Part shown: positions 41,248-60,434 of the stretch, one piece after another | Layout: every line of letters starts with the position of its first letter | Position numbering within the stretch: the first letter of the stretch is position 1 | From: Lachnospiraceae bacterium | GTDB taxonomy: Bacteria > Bacillota > Clostridia > Lachnospirales > Lachnospiraceae | DNA length: 64,000 nucleotides | Assembly (NCBI GenBank): GCA_022800815.1 | Contig: JAAWRC010000011.1 | Span: 13,587-77,586 of the forward strand | Direction of reading: 5' to 3' | The notes under the pieces: generated by a model | What the model was told of the DNA's origin: nothing | What the model saw: only the letters and a program-made list of their open reading frames with translations | The model's database searches: none | Program-made: the position numbers and the translations under genes

Positions 41248-42377
41248 AAAAGTGCATTGTGATTTCGGATTCGTTTAAGGGAACTCTCTCCAGTGTGGAA
41301 ATCTGTGCCATCGCAAAGGAGAGCATTCCCCGCTTCTTCCCGGAGTGCGAGGTGGATGCGATCCCGGTGGCGGACGGCGGGGAGGGGACGGTGGCCTGTT
41401 TTGTGTCGGCCCTCGGCGCAGAGCTGGTGGAGACCACGGTGAGCGGGCCGTATTTTGAGAAGGTCCGGGCTTCCTATGCCAGGATCGGTTCCCGGGCCGT
41501 GATTGAGACGGCGGCGGCCGCCGGGCTTCCCCTGGTGGGGGAGCGGAGGAATCCGGCGGCGACCACCACCTACGGCGTGGGGGAATTGATCCGCCATGCA
41601 CGGACCCACGGGTGCGGGGAAATTTTCCTCGGAATCGGGGGGAGTGCCACCAACGACGGGGGCTGCGGGTGTGCGGCGGCCCTCGGGGTCCGGTTTCTTG
41701 ACCGGGAGGGGAGGGCTTTCGTGCCGACGGGGGAATGCCTTTCCCGGATTGCTTCCATTGACTGCGGGGAGGCGGAACGGCTTCTGGGAGGGGCGAGGAT
41801 CACGGTGATGTGTGACGTGACCAATCCTCTGCACGGGGAACATGGGGCGGCCTTCGTGTTCGGCCCGCAAAAGGGGGCGGACCCGGACATGGTCCGTATG
41901 CTGGACGGAGAGCTGAGGGCCTTCGGCCGGGTGCTCCGTGAGGGTCTTGGCAGGGATGTCTCCGCCCTCCCCGGAGCCGGGGCCGCCGGAGGCATGGGGG
42001 GCGGGATGGCGGCTTTGTTCGGAGCGGAATTAAGGTCCGGCATCGAGGCGATTCTGGACATGGTGGATTTTGACAGACGGCTTTTGGGTGCGGATTTGGT
42101 GATCACCGGGGAGGGCCGGGTCGACGGCCAGAGCATGCAGGGGAAGGTGCTTTCCGGGGTTGCCGGGCGGACGAAAAGGGCCGGAGTGCCCCTGGTGGTC
42201 ATCGCCGGGGGAATCGGTGACGGTGCGGAGGCGGCCTATGAAATGGGGGTGACCGCCATGTTCGGGATCGATCGGCCGGCGGTGGCCTTTGAGGATTACG
42301 GGGCGGAGTCAGGGCGGCATTATCAGGCGGTCCTGGAGGATGTTCTGCGGCTTGGGAAGGCGGCGGGGAAGTGGTGA
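41244..42377 (+). CDS. glxK: Glycerate kinase
   Basis: DSFKGTL, ADGGEGT, GGSATNDGG, GAAGG, TGEG. Confidence 0.93.
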   Translation: MKKCIVISDSFKGTLSSVEICAIAKESIPRFFPECEVDAIPVADGGEGTVACFVSALGAELVETTVSGPYFEKVRASYARIGSRAVIETAAAAGLPLVGERRNPAATTTYGVGELIRHARTHGCGEIFLGIGGSATNDGGCGCAAALGVRFLDREGRAFVPTGECLSRIASIDCGEAERLLGGARITVMCDVTNPLHGEHGAAFVFGPQKGADPDMVRMLDGELRAFGRVLREGLGRDVSALPGAGAAGGMGGGMAALFGAELRSGIEAILDMVDFDRRLLGADLVITGEGRVDGQSMQGKVLSGVAGRTKRAGVPLVVIAGGIGDGAEAAYEMGVTAMFGIDRPAVAFEDYGAESGRHYQAVLEDVLRLGKAAGKW

Positions 42378-42398
42378 AGGGCATCCCGGGCGGGAGGT

Positions 42399-43295
42399 TC
42401 AGAGGTTGTCCGTGAGGTCGGAGTTCAGGATAAATTGGTAAAAGGCTTCGCTGGGTTTCGAGAGTTTTTTGCTTTTGGCCTTTACCAGGTAGAGTTTTCT
42501 GTCCTGGTCGATGTCGGAAAAGGGGATTCGCTTTACCGGGCTGTGGTCCAGAATGGAGACCTCCGGGACGATGGCCACGGCCTGGCTGCCCTCCAGCATG
42601 GCGGCGATGGAGGATTCTTCTTCGAATTCGTAAATGATGTTGGCTTTCACGTTGGCGCCGGAGATGATCTCGTCTACCAGGCGCCTGCTCTCCCCCGTAA
42701 AGCTGTTGTAGGTGATTAACGGGTAGGAGAGGGCTTCCTTTGCGGAGACCTGGGGGCGGGAGGCCAGCGGGTGGTCCGGGGAGACGATGAGGATCAGCCG
42801 CTGCCTGATGATGGGGACGAATTCAATGTCGTATTCTTCCCGGACGAAGGCGCAGATGCCGAGGTCGTAGGTCCCGTTCTTGATCCCCTCGATGATGATG
42901 CGGCTGTGGGCCTGGCCGAAAATAAAGTGGTATTTGCTGTGCCTGGGAAGTTCGATAAAGCTGTTCACCAGCCGGGGGACCAGGGAATGGCCGAGAATGT
43001 ACAGGTAGGCGAAATGGATGATGTCCGGTGTCTCGGTGGAAATCTGCTTCAGAAGCTCCACGCCGGAATTGATCTGTGTGAGGGCGGGGGCCACGTGGTC
43101 GTAAAAGATCTGTCCGTACTGGGTGAGCTTCACGTTCCGGCCGTTTTTCATGAACAGGGAAACGCCCAGTTCTTCTTCCAGCTTCGCAATGGCGTAGCTT
43201 AAGCTGGGCTGTGAAATGTACAGGGCTTCGGAAGCCTGGGTATAATGCTCCAACTGGGCAAGTTTTACAAAATAGGAAAGAAAATTATAAGTCAT
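42399..43295 (-). CDS. LysR-family transcriptional regulator
   Basis: ASEALYISQPSLS..I..LEEELG..LF.K.GR..LT. Confidence 0.93.
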   Translation of the reverse strand: MTYNFLSYFVKLAQLEHYTQASEALYISQPSLSYAIAKLEEELGVSLFMKNGRNVKLTQYGQIFYDHVAPALTQINSGVELLKQISTETPDIIHFAYLYILGHSLVPRLVNSFIELPRHSKYHFIFGQAHSRIIIEGIKNGTYDLGICAFVREEYDIEFVPIIRQRLILIVSPDHPLASRPQVSAKEALSYPLITYNSFTGESRRLVDEIISGANVKANIIYEFEEESSIAAMLEGSQAVAIVPEVSILDHSPVKRIPFSDIDQDRKLYLVKAKSKKLSKPSEAFYQFILNSDLTDNL

Positions 43296-43446
43296 CTGTC
43301 AAAACACCTCGTCTAACCATGATTTTTCTGGATGTTCCCATTATACCATAAAAAAAGAAATGGATTCATTTAGTTTCTCTATGGCTTTCTGGAAAATATG
43401 TATTGGTGTGGAGGGTGTCGGCGGATGCGGGAAGGGGGATTCAGGG

Positions 43447-44214
43447 ATGGAATCAAAAATGGAATCTGAAACGGAACGGGGAGGGTGGAGGCGGCACTTG
43501 CTTTCTCTTGCGGCGGCCGCACATGACGCAGAGGAAATTCGGGCAGAATATTACAGAAGTAAGGCGGAGACGGCGGTCAAAAACCTAAGAAGGAATCTGT
43601 TTGAGGCGCATTATGCCGACTCGCTGGGCCAGGCAAAGGAGCTTCTCCTGAGCCTGATCCCGGAGGGGGCCGTCGTGGGCTGCGGGGATTCCCACACGCT
43701 GTTTGCCATGGACCTGGAAGGGAGTCTTTCGGAGAAGGGGTGCACGGTGATTCCCCATGTCTGCGTCAACCGTCCTTTTATGGAGGAGAACGGAGGGTTC
43801 CGGGACCGGGAGGAGGCGAGACGGGTCACACGGGAGATTATACGGAATTATCTGGCCAGTGACGTGTTTCTTCTGGGGGCCAACGCCATTACCATGGACG
43901 GACAGATCGTCAACGTGGACGGGAGGGGAAACCGGATTGCCGGGAGTCTTTACGGGCCGGAGCGGGTTATCGTTCTGGCCGGGGCCAACAAGCTGGTGCC
44001 GGACGAGCGGGCGGGCCGGGAGCGGGCGGGCTTCGTGTCCGCAGCCATGAACCATGTGAAGTACGGGAAGGGGGAGATGCCCTGCATGAAGGCGGGGGTC
44101 TGTCTGGACTGCCGTCATCCGGAGCGCTCCTGCAGCATCACGACCGTCATCCACAGGAAGCCCCACGATGCGGATTTCCACGTCATTCTGGTGGGGGAGG
44201 AGCTGGGCTTCTGA
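43447..44214 (+). CDS. LUD-domain (LutC/YkgG-like) protein
   Basis: NAITMDGQIVNVDGRGNR, GP..VI..AG.NKLV, Cys cluster PC...G.C.DC....C. Confidence 0.82.
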   Translation: MESKMESETERGGWRRHLLSLAAAAHDAEEIRAEYYRSKAETAVKNLRRNLFEAHYADSLGQAKELLLSLIPEGAVVGCGDSHTLFAMDLEGSLSEKGCTVIPHVCVNRPFMEENGGFRDREEARRVTREIIRNYLASDVFLLGANAITMDGQIVNVDGRGNRIAGSLYGPERVIVLAGANKLVPDERAGRERAGFVSAAMNHVKYGKGEMPCMKAGVCLDCRHPERSCSITTVIHRKPHDADFHVILVGEELGF

Positions 44215-44236
44215 CTGCCTTGCAGGAAAACTCAGC

Positions 44237-44455
44237 CCCGGCAATTGCGCAGCCACGAAACTTGATAAAGATTCTGACGACTGCTTCCAGGAAAAGCCCT
44301 CTGCGCCGTGGAAGCAAGACCAGAGAAGACAGGAGGGATTCTTTCCCGAGTGGCTTCTGCGGTTCTGGGCTTGCTGGAACGCTTGGCGCAGCAGGCTTTG
44401 GATGGACGCAGTCGTCAGAATCTGTTCTGCGATTCTGAGTTGTGCAATTGCCGGG
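44237..44455 (+). repeat. Palindromic intergenic element, copy 1 (candidate structured RNA or REP/MITE-like element)
   Basis: 117-nt core 44291-44407 matches the reverse complement of 50515-50630; perfect 15-bp inner IR plus an outer IR. Confidence 0.85.
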
Positions 44456-44571
44456 AACTCATATAGAATCTCTATGGATTCTTTGTAAGATATGTATTGG
44501 AATTTTGAAATGGGAACGGGTAAACTATTAAAAACAACCAAAAGAAGCAAGACGGTCAGGAGGAAATAACG

Positions 44572-45765
44572 ATGAATGATTTGTATGGGGCGGCCCGCAG
44601 GCTGGATCTGGTGCAGTTCTCGCCGGTCCGCAGGGTGCTGGAGCGGGCCAACGAGCTGGCGGGGCAGGGCAGGGACATCCTGCATGTGGAGATCGGGGAG
44701 CCGGATTTTGATACTCCCTCTGATATCGTGGAGGCGACGGTGCATGCGCTCGCCGTCGAGAAAAGGACCCACTATCCGCCGAACCGGGGGGTCCTAAAGC
44801 TCCGGAACGCCATTTCGGACATGCTTAAGGAGCAGTTCCATGTATCTTATGACGGCGCTTCGGAGGTCCTGGTGACCTGCGGGGCGGCGGAGGCGATCTT
44901 CGACGCCGTCATGGCGTTGGTGAACGAGGGGGACGAGGTGATCGTTATGACTCCCGCTTACATGAATTATGAAAACTGCATCCGCATGGCCGGGGCGTCC
45001 TGTATGAAGGTGGAGCTTTTGGAGAGTACCGGCTACCAGGTGGACGAGGCGGCCCTGGAGGCGGCGGTGACGGAGCGGACCAGGATGATCGTCCTCACGA
45101 ACCCGAACAATCCCACGGGCACGGTCATGAACCGGGAGAGCCTTCAGAAGATTGCGGCGGTGGCCAGGGCCCATGACCTGGTCGTGTTGTCGGACGAGAT
45201 TTATGCGGCCATGCACTACGGGGGGGAATACGTTTCTTTTGCGTCTCTTCCGGGCATGAAGGAGCGCACGGTTCTGGTCAGTGGGTTTTCGAAATGCTTT
45301 GCCATGACCGGGTGGCGGATTGGCTACGTGGCCTGTGATGCCAGGTTCTATTCCCAGATTCTCAAGGTCCATCAGTACGCCACCAACTGTATTCCCACGT
45401 TTATCCAGGAGGGGCTGGCAGCCGGGATGCGGACGGAAAAGACGGCGATGGACGTGAAGGCGATGGTGCTCACCTTTGACGAGAGGCGGCGGATGGTGCT
45501 GGAAATGCTTTCTCAGGTTCCGGGGGTGTCTTGCAGCGGGGCCGATGGCGCTTTTTATGTGTTTGTCAATGTCTCCGGGACGGGCCTTTCTGGAACGGAA
45601 TTTGCCGAACGGCTTTTGGAAGAGCAGGGGGTGGCGCTGGTTCCGGGGGCGGCTTTCGGGGATGGCTGTCGAAACTGTGTCAGGATTTCTTACGGGACTT
45701 CCATAGACGTGCTTGACAAGGCCCTGCAGAGGATCCGGGAATTCGCTGCGGCGCTTTGCAAATAA
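44572..45765 (+). CDS. Class I/II PLP-dependent aminotransferase
   Basis: IGEPDF, NPNNPTG, DEIY, GFSK.FAMTGWRIG. Confidence 0.93.
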   Translation: MNDLYGAARRLDLVQFSPVRRVLERANELAGQGRDILHVEIGEPDFDTPSDIVEATVHALAVEKRTHYPPNRGVLKLRNAISDMLKEQFHVSYDGASEVLVTCGAAEAIFDAVMALVNEGDEVIVMTPAYMNYENCIRMAGASCMKVELLESTGYQVDEAALEAAVTERTRMIVLTNPNNPTGTVMNRESLQKIAAVARAHDLVVLSDEIYAAMHYGGEYVSFASLPGMKERTVLVSGFSKCFAMTGWRIGYVACDARFYSQILKVHQYATNCIPTFIQEGLAAGMRTEKTAMDVKAMVLTFDERRRMVLEMLSQVPGVSCSGADGAFYVFVNVSGTGLSGTEFAERLLEEQGVALVPGAAFGDGCRNCVRISYGTSIDVLDKALQRIREFAAALCK

Positions 45766-45786
45766 AAAAACGAAGGAGGATTCACA

Positions 45787-47127
45787 ATGAAAAAGGTACT
45801 TGCAGTGCTTCTTGCGGCGGCCATGACGTTTTCCCTCGTCGGCTGCGGGGGCGCAGGAGGGGAAGGGAAAGGAACGGAGAAAAAAACGGAAGACGTGGGG
45901 ACGGAGACGGCGGACGTGCCCGGAGACACGAAGGCGGAGTCCTCCGGTCAGGAGGCGGGGGAGACGATCCGGGTCGGCGTCCTCTACCCTCTCACCGGGA
46001 ACAACGCCACGGCGGGAATGGAGTCCGTGAAGTGCCTGGAAACGGCGGCGGAACTGATCAACGGTTCCTATGATATCGACTTCCCGGGGGCGAAGACGGA
46101 GGGTATCCAGAGCATGGGCGGTGCGAAAATCGAGATCATTGCGGCGGACTCCCAGGCCAGTGCGGAGGTTTCCGCCACGGAAGCGGAACGGCTGATCACC
46201 GAGGAGCACGTGGACGCCCTGATCGGCTGTGACATTTCCAGTTGTACCAAGACGGCCAGTGCGGTGGCGGAGCGCTACGGGGTTCCGTTCATCAACGGGG
46301 AGTCTTCCTCCGACAGCCTGGTGGGGCGGGGGCTGGATTATTTCTTCCACGTGGGCCCCAACGACAGTCTTCTGGTGGCTTCCTCCTTTGATTACCTGGA
46401 CAAGATCCGGGAGTCGGCGGGGATCGAGTCGGTGGCGATCTGCGGTGCGGACGACGACTCCGGCACCAATTTCGTGAATTTCTGTGAGAAGGAGGCCAAG
46501 GAGAGGGGCTATACCATTGCCACCCAGTTCACTTACACCCAGGATGCGGCGACCCTCTCTTCGGAGTGCATGAAGCTCAAGGCTTCGGAGGCGGACGCCC
46601 TGATGATCTTTGCCCTGACGGGACCGGCCATCTTGTTCCTCCAGACCATGCAGGACATGGATATCAATTTTAAGACCATGATCACCGCCAGGGGAGGTTT
46701 TATCGCCACGGAGTTCTTTGACACGGTGGGGGATGCGTCTGAGTACATCATGACGGAGAACACCTGGAGTCTGGACAGCGTGTCGGACAAGGCTTTTTCT
46801 GCGGCCATCAATGACCTCTGCATCGAGAAGGCGGGCTGCGGCATGAACGGGAATTATGCCAGGGCCATGCAGGCGTTCTTCGTGCTCTGTGACGCCCTGG
46901 AACGGGCCGGAAGCAAGGACGGGGAAGCCCTTAAGGATGCGCTCTGGGCCACGGACATGGATGGCTCCGCACTGATCTGCCCCTGGGAGGGTGTGAAGTT
47001 TGACGAGGACGGGCAGAATATTTATGCGGGAGGTATCATGACCCAGGTCCAGAACGGGCAGTACGTGACCATTGATCCGGAGGTGGAACAGGCGGTGGTG
47101 CCGGTGCCTGCCTGGAAGGACCGCTGA
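45787..47127 (+). CDS. livK: LIV-type ABC substrate-binding lipoprotein (second system)
   Basis: Lipobox LVGC; PLTG..A..G and periplasmic binding protein type-1 pattern. Confidence 0.86.
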   Translation: MKKVLAVLLAAAMTFSLVGCGGAGGEGKGTEKKTEDVGTETADVPGDTKAESSGQEAGETIRVGVLYPLTGNNATAGMESVKCLETAAELINGSYDIDFPGAKTEGIQSMGGAKIEIIAADSQASAEVSATEAERLITEEHVDALIGCDISSCTKTASAVAERYGVPFINGESSSDSLVGRGLDYFFHVGPNDSLLVASSFDYLDKIRESAGIESVAICGADDDSGTNFVNFCEKEAKERGYTIATQFTYTQDAATLSSECMKLKASEADALMIFALTGPAILFLQTMQDMDINFKTMITARGGFIATEFFDTVGDASEYIMTENTWSLDSVSDKAFSAAINDLCIEKAGCGMNGNYARAMQAFFVLCDALERAGSKDGEALKDALWATDMDGSALICPWEGVKFDEDGQNIYAGGIMTQVQNGQYVTIDPEVEQAVVPVPAWKDR

Positions 47128-47152
47128 GCGCAGACGAAAGGACGGTTGGAGT

Positions 47153-48013
47153 ATGTTAGCATTATTGCCACAGGTGCTCCTCGAGGGCGTTTTTACGGGA
47201 ATGATCATTGCGCTGATCGCCATGAGCGTGTCCCTGACGTGGGGCGTCATGTACATTATCAATTTTGCCCAGGGAGAGATCTTGATGCTGGGAATGTTTT
47301 TGTCCTACTATTTCACTTTGGCGACCGGGCTGGACCCGCTGGTCTGCCTGCCGCTCTGCGGGGTGGTCATGTATTTCTTCGGGGTGCTGATTTATAAGCT
47401 CTTGATCAGGCGGGTCATGAAATCCAGTACTTTGAGCCAGCTTCTTGTCACTTATGCGCTCAGCATCGTGCTGGTGAACGTGGCGCAGATCGCCTTCGGG
47501 CCGGCCTACAAGACGGTGGACACCCAGGTGTTTCAGGGTTCCATCCAGGTGGGAAATGTGCTGATCGCCTGGTCCAGGCTGGTGCCGCTTCTGATCTGTG
47601 TTTTCACGGCCCTGGCCCTCTACATTGTGATCAACAAGACCAACATCGGGCGTTCCATCAAGGCGACCGCCCTGAACCGGGATGCGGCGTCTTTGGTGGG
47701 TGTCAATGCGGAGCGGGCCTACACGGTCTGCATGGGCCTGGCGACGGCGGCTTCCGGCATCGGCGGGGTGGCCCTCACCTATTATTTTTCCATCTATCCC
47801 AGCGTGGGCTCGGTGTTCATGAATTTTGGCTTTACGGCCTGCTGCATCGGGGGGATGGGAAGTATTCCGGGCGCGGTCATCGGAGGGATCCTGATGGGTT
47901 TGATCGACAGCATCGTAGGTACGTTTTTCAATGTGTCGCTCAAGTACGTGGCGGTGTTCGCCCTGTTTATCCTTGTGGTTTATAAACGTCCCAAGGGGCT
48001 GTTTGGGTGGTGA
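47153..48013 (+). CDS. livH: LIV-type ABC permease
   Basis: INFAQGE, TNIGRSIKA, GGMGSIPGA. Confidence 0.88.
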   Translation: MLALLPQVLLEGVFTGMIIALIAMSVSLTWGVMYIINFAQGEILMLGMFLSYYFTLATGLDPLVCLPLCGVVMYFFGVLIYKLLIRRVMKSSTLSQLLVTYALSIVLVNVAQIAFGPAYKTVDTQVFQGSIQVGNVLIAWSRLVPLLICVFTALALYIVINKTNIGRSIKATALNRDAASLVGVNAERAYTVCMGLATAASGIGGVALTYYFSIYPSVGSVFMNFGFTACCIGGMGSIPGAVIGGILMGLIDSIVGTFFNVSLKYVAVFALFILVVYKRPKGLFGW

Positions 48014-48019
48014 TGAGAG

Positions 48020-49039
48020 ATGAATAATTTGATGAAAAAGATGAAGGGGAGCCTGAGGGCGAGCGGGGTCTCGCCGGCCGTTCTGACTGTCTGTGCCGTC
48101 GTGGTCCTGGCTTATCCCCACGTGTTTTCTTCACCGTTTCAGAGAAATCTGGGGATCTTGATCCTGATGTGGGGCTGTCTTGGCAGTGCGTGGAATATTT
48201 TCGGCGGGTACACGGGACAGGTCTGTCTGGGGACGGCCATGTTTTTCGGCATGGGGGCTTACGGCGTGGTGCTTCCTTATTATTACTGGAACGTCACTCC
48301 CTGGCTGGGTATCCTGATCGGCATGGTTCTGGCGGTGGTCCTGGCCCTCCTGGTGGCGATTCCAATCTTTAAGCTGAGCGCCCAGTATTTTTCCATTGCG
48401 ACCATGGCCCTGGGCGAGACGGTGCGGATCATCATGGTGAATCTTCCGTTCACCAGGGGAATGCAGGGGATTGATTTTCTCAACATGAAGGACAGTTTTT
48501 GGTTTACTTTGCAGTCCAGCAGCAAGCTTCCTTATTATTATATGTTTGCGATTCTAATCGGGGGCGTGTTCGTCCTCATGTGCTGGATCAACACCTCCAG
48601 GCTGGGGTATTATTTCCGCACCATCAAGGCGAACCCGACTTCGGCGGAGAGTATCGGCATCAATGTCAGGAAGTATAAGACGTATGCCCTGGTGCTGTGT
48701 GCGGTCATCGCTTCTCTCTGTGGCTCTGTCTACGTGGTCTACCAGGCATACGTGGACCCGGCGACGGTGCTTCTGGGGGCGCTCTCCACCAGGATGATCA
48801 TCATGGCGGTCATCGGGGGCATCGGCACGGTGTACGGTCCCATGGTGGGGGCGCTGATCCTGGTGCCCCTGGGTGAGTATATCCGTGCGGCCAACAGTGG
48901 TTCTCTGCCGGGGATCGATCTGGTCATTTACGGGGTGCTGATCATTCTGGTGATCATGTTCCAGCCGGACGGCGTCGTGGCCATGGGGAGGAAGGCGGCG
49001 GAGCGGATTGGCAGGAGATTCAGAAAGGAGGCCGCCTGA
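48020..49039 (+). CDS. livM: LIV-type ABC permease
   Basis: WNIFGGYTGQ, SRLG, GGIGTVYGP. Confidence 0.88.
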   Translation: MNNLMKKMKGSLRASGVSPAVLTVCAVVVLAYPHVFSSPFQRNLGILILMWGCLGSAWNIFGGYTGQVCLGTAMFFGMGAYGVVLPYYYWNVTPWLGILIGMVLAVVLALLVAIPIFKLSAQYFSIATMALGETVRIIMVNLPFTRGMQGIDFLNMKDSFWFTLQSSSKLPYYYMFAILIGGVFVLMCWINTSRLGYYFRTIKANPTSAESIGINVRKYKTYALVLCAVIASLCGSVYVVYQAYVDPATVLLGALSTRMIIMAVIGGIGTVYGPMVGALILVPLGEYIRAANSGSLPGIDLVIYGVLIILVIMFQPDGVVAMGRKAAERIGRRFRKEAA

Positions 49040-49749
49040 TGGGGATTCTTGAGGTGAAGAACGTGACAAAGCATTTTGGCGGCCTGGTGGCCAACAGTGA
49101 CGTGTCTTTTTCCGTGGAGCGGGGACAGGTGTACGGCATTGTCGGGCCCAACGGCGCCGGAAAGACAACCATGTTCAACATGATCAGCGGGACTTTCCAT
49201 CCCACGTCGGGGCAGATTTTGTTTAAGGGCGAGGACATTACGAGGAAGCCGGCCTATGAGATCTGCAAGCGCCACATCGGCAGGACGTTCCAGATTCCGC
49301 TGGCCCTGGACAAGATGACGGTGCTGGAAAACGTGACCGTGGGCGCCATGGTCCACACGCCGAAGACGGAGACGGCGAAGGAGTTTGCGGCGGAGATTTT
49401 GGCCTACGTGGGCATGGAGGGGCAGCGGGATTTGATGGCGGAGTCCTTGAGCGTAATCCAGAAAAAGAGGCTGGAGATTGCGAGGGCCTTAAGCACGAAG
49501 CCGGAGTTGATTCTTCTTGACGAGTCCATGGCGGGCTTAAACGGCCAGGAGCGGGACGACGCCATAGCCCTGATCAAAAAGATCAACGGGGACGGGATCA
49601 CGGTCCTCATGATCGAGCATGTGATGCGGGTGGTCATGAGTGTCTGTGACCAGGTGCTGGTGCTGCAGAACGGCATGAGGATCGCTGAGGGGACGCCGGA
49701 GGAGATCACGCGGGACGAGAGGGTCATTGCGGCCTATTTGGGGGATTGA
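49039..49749 (+). CDS. livG: LIV-type ABC ATP-binding protein
   Basis: GPNGAGKT, RTFQ, LLDE. Confidence 0.92.
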   Translation: MGILEVKNVTKHFGGLVANSDVSFSVERGQVYGIVGPNGAGKTTMFNMISGTFHPTSGQILFKGEDITRKPAYEICKRHIGRTFQIPLALDKMTVLENVTVGAMVHTPKTETAKEFAAEILAYVGMEGQRDLMAESLSVIQKKRLEIARALSTKPELILLDESMAGLNGQERDDAIALIKKINGDGITVLMIEHVMRVVMSVCDQVLVLQNGMRIAEGTPEEITRDERVIAAYLGD

Positions 49750-49751
49750 TT

Positions 49752-50459
49752 ATGCTGAAAGTATCGAACATAGTGACCGGCTACAACAGCTCCCTGGCAG
49801 TGCTTGGAGGGGTCAGTTTTGACGTGAAGGAGGGGGAGATCGTGGCGATTTTGGGCTCCAACGGGGCGGGGAAGTCGACCACCCTCCGGACGGTGGCGGG
49901 ACTTATGAGACCCTGGGAGGGGAGCGTGGTGTTTTCCGGCGAGGACATTTCCGGGGTGCCGGCCCACGAGGTGGTGAGAAAGGGACTCTCCCTGGTGCCG
50001 GAGGGGCGGCTCCTCTTCGGCAAGCTGACGGTGCACGAAAACCTGACCATGGGGGCGTTCACCAGGAAGGACAGGGCGGAGATCCAGGATTCCCTGGACA
50101 TGGTCTACACCCTGTTTCCCAGGGTGAAGGAGCGGATGCACCAGAAGGCGAACACCCTCTCCGGCGGCGAACAGCAGATGGTCGCCATCGCCAGGGGGCT
50201 GATGTCGAAGCCCAGGCTCCTGATTCTGGACGAGCCTTCCCTGGGGCTGGCGCCGAAGCTGGTGAAAGAGGTGTTCGCCTTCGTGAAGGAGATCAACCGG
50301 AAGGGGATCTCCGTGCTGATCGTGGAGCAGAACGTGAAGGAGACGCTGCTGCTTTCCGACCGGGCCTTTATCATCCAGGACGGAAAGACCACCTTTGACG
50401 GAAGGTCGGAGGAGCTTATGGACGACGACAACGTGCGCAAGGCGTATCTTGGGATGTAA
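49752..50459 (+). CDS. livF: LIV-type ABC ATP-binding protein
   Basis: GSNGAGKS, PEGR, LSGGEQQ. Confidence 0.92.
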   Translation: MLKVSNIVTGYNSSLAVLGGVSFDVKEGEIVAILGSNGAGKSTTLRTVAGLMRPWEGSVVFSGEDISGVPAHEVVRKGLSLVPEGRLLFGKLTVHENLTMGAFTRKDRAEIQDSLDMVYTLFPRVKERMHQKANTLSGGEQQMVAIARGLMSKPRLLILDEPSLGLAPKLVKEVFAFVKEINRKGISVLIVEQNVKETLLLSDRAFIIQDGKTTFDGRSEELMDDDNVRKAYLGM

Positions 50460-50471
50460 GGTGATGGGACA

Positions 50472-50680
50472 GGTAATTGCGGGACCCAAAGCTGAGGGAA
50501 TATTCTGGCAATATGTCCGTCCAAAGCCTGCTGCGCCAAGCGTTCCGGCAAGCCCAGAACCGTAGAAGTCACTCGGGATTCGTCCCTCCTGCCTTCTCTG
50601 GTCTTGCTTCCACGGTGCAGAGGGCTTTTCTCGGAAATATTGCCAGAATATTCAATAAAGTTTTGAGTCCCGCAGTTACC
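50472..50680 (-). repeat. Palindromic intergenic element, copy 2 (inverted relative to copy 1)
   Basis: Same core; perfect 17-bp inner IR gaatattctggcaatat / atattgccagaatattc plus an outer IR. Confidence 0.85.
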
Positions 50681-50743
50681 CATGGGCTTCGGGTGCGGGA
50701 AGCATCCTATAGGAACATATTTGATTGAGAAAAGGAGAATGAA

Positions 50744-51622
50744 ATGAAGATTGGATTTATTGGATTGGGAATCATGGGGACTCCCATGGCGAAAAACCTG
50801 CTGGGGGCGGGACATGAGCTGGTGGTGTACGACAGGTCTGAGGAAAAGATGGGCGAGGTCGTGAAGGCGGGGGCCAGGGGCGCCGCTTCTTCCAGGGAGG
50901 TGGCGGAGAAGTGCCGCCTGGTGATCACCATGGTTCCCAACTCGCCCCACGTGAAGGCGGCGGTCCTCGGGAAGGACGGCGTGCTGGAGGGGGCGAAGGC
51001 GGGGGACATCCTCATTGACATGAGCTCCATCGCCCCCCTGGCTTCCCAGGAGGTTTACAAGGCCTGCCGGGAGAAGGGGGTCCGCATGATCGACGCCCCC
51101 GTGTCCGGCGGGGAGCCGAAGGCCATCGACGGGACGCTCTCCATCATGGTGGGCGGTGACAGGGAGACTTTTGACGAGGTGTATGACGTGCTGATGGTCA
51201 TGGGCGGGAGCGCCGTGTACTGCGGGGACAGCGGGGCCGGAAACATGACGAAGCTGGCCAACCAGATCATCGTGGCCGTGAACATTGCGGCCGTGTCGGA
51301 AGCTTTCATGCTGGCCTCCAAGGCGGGGGTGGACCCGGAGAAGGTCTTTGACGCCATCCGGGGCGGCCTGGCGGGTTCCACGGTCATGGAAGCCAAGGTT
51401 CCCAAGATCCTCGGAAGGGATTTCTCTCCCGGCTTCCGCATTGACTTACATATCAAGGACTTGAACAACGCCATCGAGACGGGCCACGGCGTGGGCGCCC
51501 CGCTGTTTCTGACCACGCAGGTGCAGGAAATGCTGGAACGGCTTCATTTCGACGGCTGCGGCTCCGACGACCACAGCGCCATTGTGAAGTACTATGAGAA
51601 GCTTTGCGGGAGCGAGATTTAG
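50744..51622 (+). CDS. garR: 2-hydroxy-3-oxopropionate (tartronate semialdehyde) reductase
   Basis: GFIGLGIMG, DAPVSGGE, KLANQ, PGFRIDLHIKDL. Confidence 0.9.
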   Translation: MKIGFIGLGIMGTPMAKNLLGAGHELVVYDRSEEKMGEVVKAGARGAASSREVAEKCRLVITMVPNSPHVKAAVLGKDGVLEGAKAGDILIDMSSIAPLASQEVYKACREKGVRMIDAPVSGGEPKAIDGTLSIMVGGDRETFDEVYDVLMVMGGSAVYCGDSGAGNMTKLANQIIVAVNIAAVSEAFMLASKAGVDPEKVFDAIRGGLAGSTVMEAKVPKILGRDFSPGFRIDLHIKDLNNAIETGHGVGAPLFLTTQVQEMLERLHFDGCGSDDHSAIVKYYEKLCGSEI

Positions 51623-51704
51623 GCAGTTGCGAAACGCAAAAACAGAATCCGCTTTGCAATTTCGAGTTTCGCAATTGCCTATGAGTACAAATAAAAGGTG
51701 AGAG

Positions 51705-58992: not shown

Positions 58993-60434
58993 GAAGCAGC
59001 CTCCGTTTCCGGCGCCCCGTCTGCGGGAGCCTCTCCTGCGTCGCCGGGAACAGTTTCATCTGCGCCGCCGGGAATTTCTTCATCCAGGGGAGCAATATTT
59101 TCCTCGTCGCCCATCATGTCTCCCTCACCGCCTTCCGGCAGCAGGTCCTCACCGCCGTCAGGGGTAATGATGTCCTCGTCGAATCCGTCCGGTGAGATGG
59201 GCTCTTCGCCGCCCATGGGGATCATATCCACGTCCCCGCCCGTCATGCCGCCGGAGACGCCGCCGATGTTTTTCTGAACGGGAGCGCCTTTCCTGCAGTC
59301 GTCGCTGGGCCAGACGATGTAATCGGAAGCTTTTAAGCCGTCCGTGATCTCCCAGGTGTCGGAGTCCTCGTCGTAGCCGCCCAGGGTGACCGCCCGTTTT
59401 TCCAGCTTGTCGCCTTCCCCGGCCGCCCACACGTAAGGGTCGCCGTCGCCCTGAACGATGTAGGGAGACATGAGCCACATGCCCTCCTTCTTCTCCAGGC
59501 CAAGATCCGGCTCCAGGTAGACGTGCTGGCCCAGCATCAGGCCGTCGCTGGAATCCAGGGTGACGTAGAAGGGATATTTGGAAGCCTGGGCGCTGCTGTC
59601 CATGCCGTCGATCATTACCCCGCTGTTATTGCCGGAAATGGGTTTCTCCGTGTCGATGCTGTCCACCGTGCCGAGCCAGGTAAGGTCCTCGTCCACCCTG
59701 GAGTGGACCACGATGGGAGTGCCGGGAGTGAGGTTCTGCATGTTCTGCTCGCTGATGGTTCCCTTGACCCGGTATTTCCCAACGCCCAGGATGCTCATAA
59801 AGGGCTGCATCTCCCCGCTATAATTGTCATAGGAGGGTTTTTCGTTGATCTCCTGGACAATGCCCGCAATGGTGGAGGTCACCACCGAGGACTCCATGGA
59901 TTTTTGCAGCCGTTCGATCTCCAGCTGCTTCACCTTATAATTATATTCCTCCTGCTTGGCACTCATCTGGGCTTCCTGAATCTGGGTCGTGTAGGAAAGC
60001 TGCTCGCTGGACGGAGCCTTTTTCTTGGCCTTGGTAAGCTCGTCAATCTGGGCATTAATGGTATCAATGCTGTTGGAAATTTTCTCCAGCTCCAGATTGG
60101 CCTGTTCCAGCTTTAAGCTCATGTCCTCGGTGTCATATTCAAAAAGGGGCGTGCCGACCTCCACGGCCTGTCCCTTCTCCACCAGGATGTCCTTGACCGT
60201 CTGGTCGGATTCCAACTGGATTTTCAAGGTGTTTTGCGCCTCGACCACGCCGGAGAATCGGTTCTGGGCACCGAGTCCGGTGCCGGTCAGAAGGCCTACG
60301 GAATCTGCATAAAGCATGGTCTCCTCGCCGCTTGCGGAGCTTTCGTCTGAGGAAGAAAATTTCCAGACGACCCCGACGACTATGGCGGCGATCACAAGGA
60401 TGCAGACCACTGCCGTAATAATCTTTTTCTTCAT
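58989..60434 (-). CDS. Second efflux periplasmic-adaptor (MacA-like) protein
   Basis: TM anchor, VEKGQ.V..G..LF, coiled coil, V.S.IAG.V, acidic tail. Confidence 0.85.
   Translation of the reverse strand: MKKKIITAVVCILVIAAIVVGVVWKFSSSDESSASGEETMLYADSVGLLTGTGLGAQNRFSGVVEAQNTLKIQLESDQTVKDILVEKGQAVEVGTPLFEYDTEDMSLKLEQANLELEKISNSIDTINAQIDELTKAKKKAPSSEQLSYTTQIQEAQMSAKQEEYNYKVKQLEIERLQKSMESSVVTSTIAGIVQEINEKPSYDNYSGEMQPFMSILGVGKYRVKGTISEQNMQNLTPGTPIVVHSRVDEDLTWLGTVDSIDTEKPISGNNSGVMIDGMDSSAQASKYPFYVTLDSSDGLMLGQHVYLEPDLGLEKKEGMWLMSPYIVQGDGDPYVWAAGEGDKLEKRAVTLGGYDEDSDTWEITDGLKASDYIVWPSDDCRKGAPVQKNIGGVSGGMTGGDVDMIPMGGEEPISPDGFDEDIITPDGGEDLLPEGGEGDMMGDEENIAPLDEEIPGGADETVPGDAGEAPADGAPETEAAS

What the first reader, a model, noticed from the sequence alone, without database searches (positions are those of the whole stretch)
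44237..50680. Two copies of a ~215-bp palindromic element: conserved core, arms fully re-written yet still perfectly paired
Seen: the core 44291-44407 and the reverse complement of 50515-50630 differ by only six substitutions, all transitions, plus a variable loop in a GGGA/TCCC stem. The core folds into a long branched hairpin (aaagcc/ggcttt, ctgcgcc/ggcgcag, gcaag/cttgc, ccaga/tctgg, gaag/cttc). The flanking arms share no sequence, yet each is a perfect IR: gattctgacgactgc/gcagtcgtcagaatc (44270-44284, 44408-44422) versus gaatattctggcaatat/atattgccagaatattc (50498-50514, 50637-50653). Each copy also has its own outer IR containing an AATTGC/AGTTAC-like motif. Both copies sit between co-directional genes without disrupting them. 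Inference: wholesale helix covariation means structure is selected or actively regenerated. This is a dispersed structured RNA or ssDNA element (REP/REPIN-like HUH substrate, MITE or orphan ncRNA) with no cognate enzyme in this window. It is the best candidate for an undescribed system here.
Basis: partly seen in the sequence, partly recalled or inferred. Interest (0 to 1): 0.8.

Follow-up and report, generated by a model that had tools for sequence, protein, structure and literature searches.

The report
Hairpin mini-transposon landing beside ribosome-binding sites
The two "palindromic elements" belong to a family of more than 70 gene-less mini-transposons (MITEs) in this mouse-gut Lachnospiraceae genome; this is an ordinary kind of selfish DNA, except that the MITEs and their parent insertion sequence land almost always about 20 bases upstream of a gene's ribosome-binding site.

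Summary
The sequence facts hold: both copies, the six transitions and the paired arms are at the stated coordinates. The reading as a rare orphan system does not hold.

- **Copy number:** the genome has at least 72 complete copies. There are about 35 long (~210 bp) and about 25 short (~61 bp) forms, plus an in-place deletion series. A third, short copy lies in the window.
- **MITE features:** all copies share 16-bp terminal inverted repeats, YAGGYRATTGCGAAAC. Recent copies have 11-bp target-site duplications. Related genomes show filled and empty sites.
- **Parent element:** the same repeats end a 1.7-kb insertion sequence with a DUF772/DDE (IS1182/IS5-like) transposase, present in this genome and in other Lachnospiraceae.
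- **Arms:** the "re-written" arms are three subfamily variants, not per-copy rewrites.
- **Hairpin:** compensatory change along the whole hairpin is real (33 of 66 pairs). Pairing is better on one strand.
- **Unexpected result:** 75–79% of MITE copies, and about 26 of 30 independent insertions of the parent IS, sit with a GGAG-type Shine-Dalgarno motif 17–23 nt from one end. The figure is 18% for random intergenic positions.

Verdict: a new MITE family of a known kind, with a probably undescribed preference for translation-start regions. RNA-seq was unavailable.

The parts
44238..44454 (+). MITE copy 1, long form (GG..CC = 44240-44452; arm subfamily B). Core hairpin 44291-44407. Lies between the LUD-domain gene (43360-44214) and the aminotransferase gene (44572-45765).
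   Evidence: The orthologous site is empty in G016:C219. The target duplication is decayed (core AACTCA at 44229-44234 and 44456-44461). This copy is one of the minority not placed next to an SD.
50470..50682 (-). MITE copy 2, long form (GG..CC = 50472-50680; arm subfamily A), in reverse orientation. Core 50515-50630. Lies between the ABC ATPase gene (49746-50459) and the dehydrogenase gene (50744-51622).
51620..51681 (.). Third family member: a short (58-bp GG..CC) form with both TIRs, having lost the core and most of the arms. Its terminal TAG serves as the stop codon of gene 50744-51622. An SD-like AAAGGTGAGAGG plus a start codon follow 13-32 nt after its right end.
44240..44255 (+). Left terminal inverted repeat of copy 1 (GGCAATTGCGCAGCC; family consensus YAGGYRATTGCGAAAC).
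   Evidence: Same motif as the TIRs of the IS at G000:C34:2256-3948.
44437..44452 (-). Right terminal inverted repeat of copy 1.
44270..44284 (+). Left arm of copy 1, pairing with 44408-44422. This is a subfamily-specific variant, not a per-copy rewrite.
   Evidence: helix 4: 10 of 17 pairs with compensatory changes.

Best explanation
The element is a miniature inverted-repeat transposable element (MITE). It is a ~210-bp, non-coding, almost fully self-complementary DNA transposon.

Shown:
- It is bounded by 16-bp terminal inverted repeats (YAGGYRATTGCGAAAC) identical to those of a 1.7-kb insertion sequence. That IS encodes a DUF772 + DDE (IS1182/IS5-like) transposase.
- Integration uses cuts staggered by 11 bp, giving an 11-bp target duplication.
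- After insertion, the long palindrome decays in place by internal deletion to ~61-bp and shorter forms.
- The target is not random. The 11-bp site lies about 5-9 bp upstream of a GGAG-type purine motif. Most copies therefore sit between a stop codon and the next gene's Shine-Dalgarno sequence, roughly 31-35 nt before the start codon.
- The parent IS does the same, always with its IRL end (the transposase 5' side) facing the motif.

Inferred:
- The transposase moves the MITE in trans.
- The transposase or its target-capture complex reads the GGAG-type motif on DNA.
- The two window copies differ in their arms because they belong to different subfamilies.
- Pairing along the hairpin has been kept through subfamily divergence by one of two routes. 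One is hairpin-templated correction of the palindrome. The other is selection for a self-contained, inert hairpin when the element is transcribed within operon mRNAs just 5' of an SD.
For: Copy number and anatomy: 42-57 core matches. 72 TIR pairs with length modes at 208-215 and 61 bp, plus intermediates.

Target duplications: flanking direct repeats scoring >=8 occur in 25% of copies versus 1% of shuffled pairs. The register equals 11 bp plus 2 element bases. One case is an exact 11-bp duplication, ATAATGTTATT, with a matching empty site in G000.

Filled/empty and in-place deletions: the window copy-1 site is empty in G016. Several sites are filled in a MAG and empty in G000. At other orthologous sites, 211 bp stands against 61 bp, 156 against 211, 209 against 159, and 209 against a 10-bp remnant.

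Parent IS: G000:C34:2256-3948 carries an intact 483-aa ORF. It matches Pfam DUF772 at 44 bits and DDE_Tnp_1 at 20.6 bits, and the NCBIfam IS1182 model at 62.8 bits. Homologous ISs in five other genera have the same TIRs. Thousands of homologues occur in gut Lachnospiraceae and Blautia.

SD-proximal placement:
- 57 of 72 copies have an SD plus start codon at a fixed offset from one end, versus 18% of 5000 random intergenic positions.
- Across four genomes the figure is 105 of 140. The SD offset peaks at 18-22 (70 of 104 copies).
- The placement holds where at least 45-1394 bp of free spacer lay upstream.
- All four clear recent insertions are SD-adjacent.
- About 26 of 30 independent IS sites have the motif at +17 to +23 from IRL. 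Two of these have GAGG inside a terminator-like hairpin with no start codon.

Distribution: 5 of 17 genomes of the genus and 0 of 44 other genera carry the core. The pattern scan found only three mouse-gut Lachnospiraceae MAGs.

Covariation: 96.8% of cells are paired. 33 of 66 pairs have double changes, versus 17.2 +/- 2.0 in shuffles and 6-11 in slid controls.
Against: - Only the 12-17-nt TIR is shared between MITE and IS. The arms and core have no counterpart in any IS copy examined.
- The transposase was found in G000 only. It is absent from the other four MITE-bearing assemblies. These are fragmented MAGs, so the absence is weak evidence, but the mobilising enzyme is inferred and not shown.
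- The G000 IS copy itself has no clear target duplication.
- Only 25-40% of MITE copies keep a recognisable duplication.
- Both long window copies belong to the ~25% that are not next to an SD.
- SD-adjacency could be partly a survivorship effect.
Confidence: 0.88

Rival explanations
1. The conserved core is a functional structured RNA (a cis-acting mRNA element or small RNA) that rides on the transposon. The hairpin is kept by selection at the RNA level, for example as an RNase III site, a 5' stabiliser of the downstream cistron, or an insulator that stops the insert from pairing with the SD.
For: - Compensatory changes occur in the core helices as well as in the arms (helices 6-8).
- There is a strand asymmetry. 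Consensus folding energy is -53.9 on the core-sense strand versus -24.4 on the opposite strand. Six frequent G.U sites stand against 0-1 A.C sites. In a strand-neutral pair set, sporadic G.U outnumber A.C 42 to 23. The sense strand folds better in 69 of 83 copies.
- In long copies the core-sense strand is co-directional with the SD-side gene 44 times versus 19.
- No promoter or terminator consensus lies inside the element, so read-through transcription is expected.
Against: - There is no Rfam match.
- Short forms without the core persist at the same kinds of site and arise by deletion in place, so the core is dispensable.
- Chimeric copies with arms from different subfamilies exist.
- One third of copies, including window copy 2, are antisense to the flanking genes.
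- G.T is also the most tolerated mismatch in single-stranded DNA hairpins. The frequent G.U sites are inherited from a common ancestor, so they represent few independent events.
- The orientation bias can come from asymmetry of the transposase ends, since the IS is always oriented IRL-to-SD.
- No expression data are available.
Confidence: 0.2
2. The position next to ribosome-binding sites is only a survivorship effect. Insertion is near-random in AT-rich DNA, and selection removes every copy that breaks a gene, an SD or a promoter.
For: - Most host intergenic spacers are short. Only the stretch between the stop codon and the SD is free.
- An outward promoter at IRL could also explain the fixed orientation of surviving IS copies.
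- About 25% of MITE copies are elsewhere.
Against: - The offset is sharp, +18 to +22 in 67% of copies, inside a permitted search range of +9 to +32.
- The offset is kept in 11 of 14 copies that had 45-1394 bp of free spacer upstream.
- Recent polymorphic insertions already show it.
- IS copies from different genera and metagenomes show the same offset and one orientation.
- Two IS insertions lie next to GAGG motifs that are parts of terminator-like hairpins, not RBSs (L144, L146).
Confidence: 0.2
3. It is a REP/REPIN-type element moved as single-stranded DNA by a RAYT/HUH (Y1) transposase.
For: It is a dispersed, extragenic, palindromic repeat. A Y1_Tnp trace exists in the genome.
Against: - The 11-bp target duplications and DDE-type TIRs shared with an IS are not features of REP/REPIN.
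- The Y1_Tnp match is a broken fragment at the end of contig C27 and is not flanked by the repeat.
- At ~210 bp with TIRs, the element differs from 20-40-nt REPs.
Confidence: 0.02

Closest known systems
Bacterial MITEs that form long hairpins and are co-transcribed with neighbouring genes (Correia/NEMIS of Neisseria, ERIC/IRU of enterobacteria, RUP of Streptococcus pneumoniae; from my own knowledge of the literature)
   Same: Small, non-coding, TIR-bounded and multi-copy. Intergenic within operons, able to fold into a long hairpin, and mobilised in trans by an IS transposase. Length variants arise by internal deletion.
   Different: The TIR sequence and an 11-bp target duplication differ (Correia and RUP duplicate TA). 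The host range is restricted to a few species of one mouse-gut Lachnospiraceae genus. The element is placed at a fixed distance upstream of Shine-Dalgarno motifs. Compensatory covariation between subfamilies is unusually complete.
IS1182 family insertion sequences, e.g. IS1272 of Staphylococcus (PMC5678879)
   Same: The parent IS is of similar size (1.7 kb) and has one ORF with the DUF772 N-terminal domain plus a DDE domain. Its best NCBIfam match is the IS1182 model. The family is known for non-random targets: some members target palindromes or stem-loops.
   Different: The NCBIfam score (62.8 bits) is far below the curated cut-off (270), so membership is not established. IS1272 replaces target hairpins and makes no duplication. 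This IS makes exact 11-bp duplications and sits next to GGAG motifs.
REP/REPIN elements with RAYT transposases
   Same: Dispersed extragenic palindromes, often between convergent or tandem genes.
   Different: REPs have no TIR/TSD architecture and depend on a Y1 HUH enzyme. None is associated with the element here.
SD- or start-codon-homing mini-elements noted earlier in this scan for IS6-like and IS110-like families (AI notes e1-2090362, e1-1359952, e1-2310886; unchecked leads)
   Same: Miniature derivatives and their full-length ISs sit in one orientation a fixed distance upstream of an SD or start codon.
   Different: The transposase family differs (DUF772/DDE rather than IS6 or IS110). The offset differs (11-bp target 5-9 bp from the SD core). 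The element carries a long covarying hairpin.

Membership tests
MITE (non-autonomous DNA transposon) | Short (<~500 bp) and without a transposase gene | tested here: met
   Elements are 50-215 bp with no conserved ORF.
MITE (non-autonomous DNA transposon) | Terminal inverted repeats conserved across copies | tested here: met
   YAGGYRATTGCGAAAC at both ends, over 90% conserved at most positions.
MITE (non-autonomous DNA transposon) | Target-site duplication, with filled versus empty sites | tested here: met
   11-bp duplications: 25% of copies versus 1% of controls, with an exact case plus its empty site. The window copy-1 locus is empty in G016.
MITE (non-autonomous DNA transposon) | TIRs shared with an autonomous IS that encodes a transposase | tested here: met
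   The IS at G000:C34:2256-3948 and its homologues in five genera end in the same TIR. They also share the 11-bp duplication and the SD offset.
MITE (non-autonomous DNA transposon) | Mobilisation in trans by that transposase | not testable with these tools
   Needs a transposition assay. The transposase was not found in four other MITE-bearing MAGs.
IS1182 family (for the parent IS) | Transposase passes the curated family model | tested here: not met
   NCBIfam NF033551 scores 62.8 bits against a cut-off of 270. Pfam DUF772 scores 44 bits and passes. DDE_Tnp_1 scores 20.6 against a cut-off of 23. I call it IS1182/IS5-like, not a member.
REP/REPIN-RAYT | Cognate Y1 (RAYT) gene flanked by the repeats, and no target duplication | tested here: not met
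   Only a broken Y1_Tnp fragment at the end of C27, not next to a copy. Duplications are present.
Described RNA family (Rfam 15) | Match at the gathering score | tested here: not met
   No match in the window at gathering thresholds. Nothing overlaps the element at E<=10.
Intrinsic terminator | GC-rich hairpin followed by a U-tract | tested here: not met
   No terminator-like site in or at either long copy.
Structured functional RNA (generic) | Compensatory covariation beyond controls | tested here: inconclusive
   Covariation is strong. However, it comes from few subfamily splits and can equally arise at the DNA level. Strand asymmetry is suggestive only. No expression data.

The most novel reading that the evidence does not exclude
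This DUF772/DDE (IS1182/IS5-like) transposon family, abundant in gut Lachnospiraceae, would home to translation-initiation regions. Its transposase complex would read a GGAG-type motif on double-stranded DNA and integrate 5-9 bp upstream, with 11-bp staggered cuts and in a preferred orientation. The family thereby finds thousands of 'safe' sites between cistrons. Its MITE has evolved into a fully self-paired hairpin so that, once embedded in the mRNA about 18 nt before the SD, it does not disturb translation and may act in processing or stabilisation. I found no description of SD-directed target choice for this family in the searchable literature.
Probability: 0.55. Interest if true: 0.65.

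Novelty: new member of a known kind. Interest (0 to 1): 0.45.

Why it matters
As a MITE it is ordinary selfish DNA, and it explains a set of repeats that fragment assemblies of these gut bacteria. Three points go beyond that.

1. Target rule. A precise, oriented rule of about 20 nt upstream of GGAG, shared by the MITE and a very abundant gut-Lachnospiraceae/Blautia insertion sequence, would be a simple protein-based way of finding harmless sites. It could be tested directly and perhaps exploited for insertion upstream of genes.

2. Effect on operons. These elements put a hairpin of roughly -100 kcal/mol into the intercistronic mRNA of dozens of operons. They are therefore natural experiments on how 5'-proximal structure affects translation and mRNA decay.

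3. Palindrome maintenance. The near-perfect compensatory divergence of subfamilies is a clean data set for asking how long palindromes are kept in bacterial DNA.

Tried and rejected
- **Rfam:** searched at gathering thresholds over the window and at E<=10 over 44000-51000. Nothing lies on the element. The best hit, sR2 at 48006-48058, is inside a coding region and far below threshold.
- **Riboswitch or leader of the downstream transporter/aminotransferase operon:** rejected. The two copies have opposite orientations, and more than 70 copies lie next to unrelated genes.
- **REPIN/RAYT:** rejected.
- **Core derived from the IS interior:** rejected. Only 12-17 nt of the TIR match.
- **Short 61-bp forms as the primary element with the core as a nested second insertion:** considered. 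Orthologous sites carrying long versus short forms, and boundaries at short direct repeats (GAATATTCT, GACAATT), favour deletion in place. The reverse is not excluded.
- **Promoter or terminator inside the element:** none by consensus scan.
- **Transposase co-occurrence with the MITE across the genus:** uninformative, because the IS is seen only in G000 and the others are fragmented MAGs.
- **Literature:** searches for SD-directed IS targeting, IS1182 targets and Lachnospiraceae MITEs gave only the IS1272 hairpin-target paper.
- **Gene calls:** those used for context are from my own crude codon-usage ORF picker. Large distances may reflect missed small genes.
Full report

Yes at the level of sequence. 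Copy 1 (GG…CC 44240-44452) and the reverse complement of copy 2 (50472-50680) align end to end.
- The cores differ by six transitions and the apical loop.
- Copy 1 folds into one long imperfect hairpin. The minimum free energy is -126.5 kcal/mol, against -76 ± 5 for shuffles (z = -10.3). The opposite strand gives -110.1 kcal/mol (z = -9.4).
- Both copies lie between co-directional genes. The neighbours are a LUD-domain protein and an aminotransferase, and an ABC ATPase and a 3-hydroxyisobutyrate-dehydrogenase-like protein.

Two statements do not hold.
- The arms are not unrelated. They share ATTCTG.C.A / T.G.CAGAAT.
- The "private outer inverted repeat" of each copy is a family-wide terminal repeat.

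**2. It is a large repeat family, not a pair.**

- The core alone matches 42-57 places in the window's own 3.4-Mb assembly, several at contig ends.
- Aligning 34 copies with flanks shows conserved ends AGGYRATTGCGAAAC … GTTTCGCAATYRCCT and unrelated sequence beyond them.
- A scan for facing pairs of this motif finds 72 bounded elements. About 35 are 208-215 bp, and about 25 are 50-72 bp with a mode at 61 bp. Intermediates of 79-159 bp read as internal deletions of the long form.
- One short copy is in the window, at 51622-51679. Its terminal TAG is the stop codon of gene 50744-51622.
- The arms fall into three variants, each carried by many copies: GAATATTCTGRCAATAT, GATTCTGACGACTGC and GGATTCTGACAATTG. 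Some copies are chimeras with a left arm of one type and a right arm or core of another.

**3. It is a transposon.**

- Flanking direct repeats are far commoner than in shuffled left/right pairings (score ≥8 in 25% versus 1%).
- Their register corresponds to an 11-bp duplication plus two bases (YA…TR) that belong to the element.

Comparison with three related mouse-gut Lachnospiraceae MAGs gives direct filled/empty evidence.
- At C64:55410 the window's genome has …CTTTC ATAATGTTATT GCCG….
- The MAG has …ATAATGTTATT-TA[GG…CC]TA-ATAATGTTATT….
- This is an exact 11-bp duplication.
- Other sites are filled in the MAG and empty here.

The window's copy-1 locus is empty in a congener (G016:C219), where 18 bp replace the 248-bp stretch.

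Orthologous sites also carry different lengths:
- 211 bp versus 61 bp
- 156 versus 211
- 209 versus 159
- 210 versus 155
- 209 bp versus a 10-bp remnant, GGCAATCGCC

So the short forms arise in place by deletion. The deletion boundaries lie at short direct repeats inside the palindrome.

The core occurs in 5 of 17 genomes of the genus and in none of 44 other genera sampled.

**4. The parent insertion sequence.**

- One TIR pair in the genome is 1693 bp apart (G000:C34:2256-3948). It encloses an intact 483-aa ORF.
- The ORF matches Pfam DUF772 at 44 bits and DDE_Tnp_1 weakly at 20.6 bits. Its best NCBIfam match is the IS1182 model at 62.8 bits, far below the 270-bit cut-off.
- I therefore call it IS1182/IS5-like and not a member of that family.
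- Its ends are TAGGTAATTGCGAAAC and TAGACGTTTGCGAAAC.
- Homologues at 60-85% identity in five other Lachnospiraceae genera end in TAGGCGTTTGCGAAACGCC (IRL) and TAGGTAATTGCGAAAC (IRR).
- Thousands of close homologues exist in gut metagenomes and Blautia, annotated only as "transposase".

Caveats:
- Only the TIR is shared with the MITE. The arms and core have no counterpart in the IS.
- The transposase was not detected in the four other MITE-bearing assemblies. These are fragmented MAGs.
- Mobilisation in trans is therefore inferred from TIR identity, equal duplication length and equal target choice.

**5. The unexpected part: where it lands.**

I used crude gene calls of my own. The distance from an element end to the next start codon piles up at 30-34 nt. 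The distance to the preceding stop codon is small but variable.

A gene-call-free test was also run. It looked for an SD-like motif 12-26 nt outward from an end, followed by a start codon.
- It is positive on exactly one side for 56 of 72 elements, and on both sides for one more.
- It is positive for 18% of 5000 random intergenic positions.
- Over four genomes the figure is 105 of 140 unique insertions. The first SD hit lies at +18 to +22 in 70 of 104, although +9 to +32 was allowed.
- The position is kept in 11 of 14 copies that had 45-1394 bp of free spacer on the other side.
- It is also kept in the four clear recent insertions.

The full-length IS behaves the same way.
- In this genome, in five other genera and in about 25 further independent metagenomic sites, the IRL end is followed by TA, the 11-bp duplication, a few bases and then GGAG/GAGG/AGGA starting at +17 to +23. 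Usually a start codon follows.
- The duplications are exact, for example GGAAATAGCAT and GAATATACTAT.
- The transposase gene always points away from the motif.
- Two IS insertions (L144, L146) lie next to GAGG motifs that form part of terminator-like hairpins with no start codon.

Taken together, the sharp offset, the fixed orientation and the non-RBS cases favour recognition of a DNA motif over mere survivorship. Selection surely adds to the pattern. I put target recognition at about 0.6-0.7.

The long MITE shows a weaker orientation bias. The core-sense 3' end faces the SD 44 times versus 19. This fits its nearly symmetric TIRs.

The short window copy is adjacent.

**6. The hairpin and its covariation.**

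On 36 diverse copies, the RNAalifold consensus is one long hairpin of 66 pairs.
- 96.8% of cells are paired.
- 33 pairs carry double-sided changes.
- Column shuffles give 17.2 ± 2.0 such pairs.
- Structures slid by 1-3 columns give 6-11.

The changes trace to a few subfamily splits, so the number of independent events is small.

There is also a strand asymmetry.
- The consensus energy is -53.9 on the core-sense strand versus -24.4 on the other.
- Six high-frequency G·U sites stand against at most one A·C site.
- Among pairs predicted on both strands, sporadic G·U outnumber A·C 42 to 23.
- The sense strand folds better in 69 of 83 copies.

This fits a single-stranded form of one strand. That form could be RNA read with the downstream gene, or DNA, where G·T is also the mildest mismatch.

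I cannot separate three explanations:
- (a) hairpin-templated correction of a quasi-palindrome during replication, which is established knowledge for quasipalindrome mutagenesis
- (b) host-level selection for an insert that folds on itself and leaves the nearby SD free
- (c) a specific RNA function

Against (c): short forms lacking the core persist, chimeric arms exist, and a third of copies are antisense to their neighbours. No promoter or terminator consensus lies in the element. No Rfam family matches.

**7. Comparison with what is known.**

- **MITE.** Architecture and behaviour meet every testable criterion for a MITE (see the membership table).
- **Closest analogues.** These are the hairpin-forming, co-transcribed MITEs Correia/NEMIS, ERIC and RUP (my own knowledge).
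- **Parent IS.** It resembles IS1182-family elements. Some of these target palindromes, and IS1272 replaces target stem-loops without duplication (PMC5678879). The IS here differs in making 11-bp duplications beside GGAG motifs.
- **REP/REPIN.** Excluded. Duplications are present, and the only Y1 transposase trace is a fragment at a contig end.
- **Literature.** Searches found no description of SD-directed targeting for this family or of a Lachnospiraceae MITE.
- **Earlier notes of this scan.** They report similar "RBS-homing" for IS6-like and IS110-like mini-elements in other genomes. These are unchecked leads. They made me treat the pattern as a possibly general strategy but are not evidence here.

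**8. Verdict.**

The finding is real but is not an orphan system. It is a new MITE family of a known kind, lineage-restricted and recently active, with a parent DDE insertion sequence in the same genome. What deserves follow-up is the oriented, fixed-distance placement upstream of Shine-Dalgarno motifs, shared by the MITE and a very abundant gut IS. A second point is the unusually clean compensatory evolution of a 210-bp palindrome. Interest is moderate.

Noticed in passing
window 51620-51622: The stop codon (TAG) of the dehydrogenase-like gene 50744-51622 is the first three bases of the short MITE copy. The insertion therefore redefined the 3' end of that gene.
   Followed up: partly
G000:C25:42038-42247 and 42263-42472; G000:C45:79647-79895: Two long copies lie head-to-head 16 bp apart, and one copy is nested in or abutting another. 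The elements can insert next to or into each other.
   Followed up: no
G000:C6:~59039-59050 versus L057:1012-1220: Where a related MAG has a 209-bp copy, this genome keeps only GGCAATCGCC. This is a footprint made by joining the two TIRs at the repeated GCAAT. It is either excision or hairpin-mediated deletion.
   Followed up: partly
G000:C22:2085-2294; G000:C70:2018-2226; L108:110-318: These are chimeric copies, with a left arm of one subfamily and a right arm or core of another. They point to recombination or gene conversion between copies and show that arm pairing is not always kept.
   Followed up: no
G000:C27:248065-248272: A broken Y1_Tnp (IS200/IS605-type) transposase fragment lies in two frames at the very end of a contig. 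It is unrelated to the MITE.
   Followed up: no
G000:C56:1-75 and G000:C38:64784-64839: These are extra fragments of the IS ends (95% and 88% identical). A second, diverged IS copy is probably hidden in an assembly gap.
   Followed up: no
G000:C7:11549-11652 and G000:C63:20622-20695: Tandem arrays with a 30-bp period (GACGGTTGCGAAGC…) were picked up by the loose TIR pattern. They are probably a coding repeat and are unrelated to the MITE.
   Followed up: no
L144 and L149 versus L143 (metagenomic IS copies): L149 combines the IRL flank of L144 with the IRR flank of L143. This indicates recombination between IS copies and may explain why some copies, including the one in G000, lack a target duplication.
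   Followed up: no
window 48006-48058: A weak Rfam hit to archaeal C/D-box sR2 (27.5 bits, cut-off 42) lies inside a transporter coding region. It is almost certainly chance.
   Followed up: no
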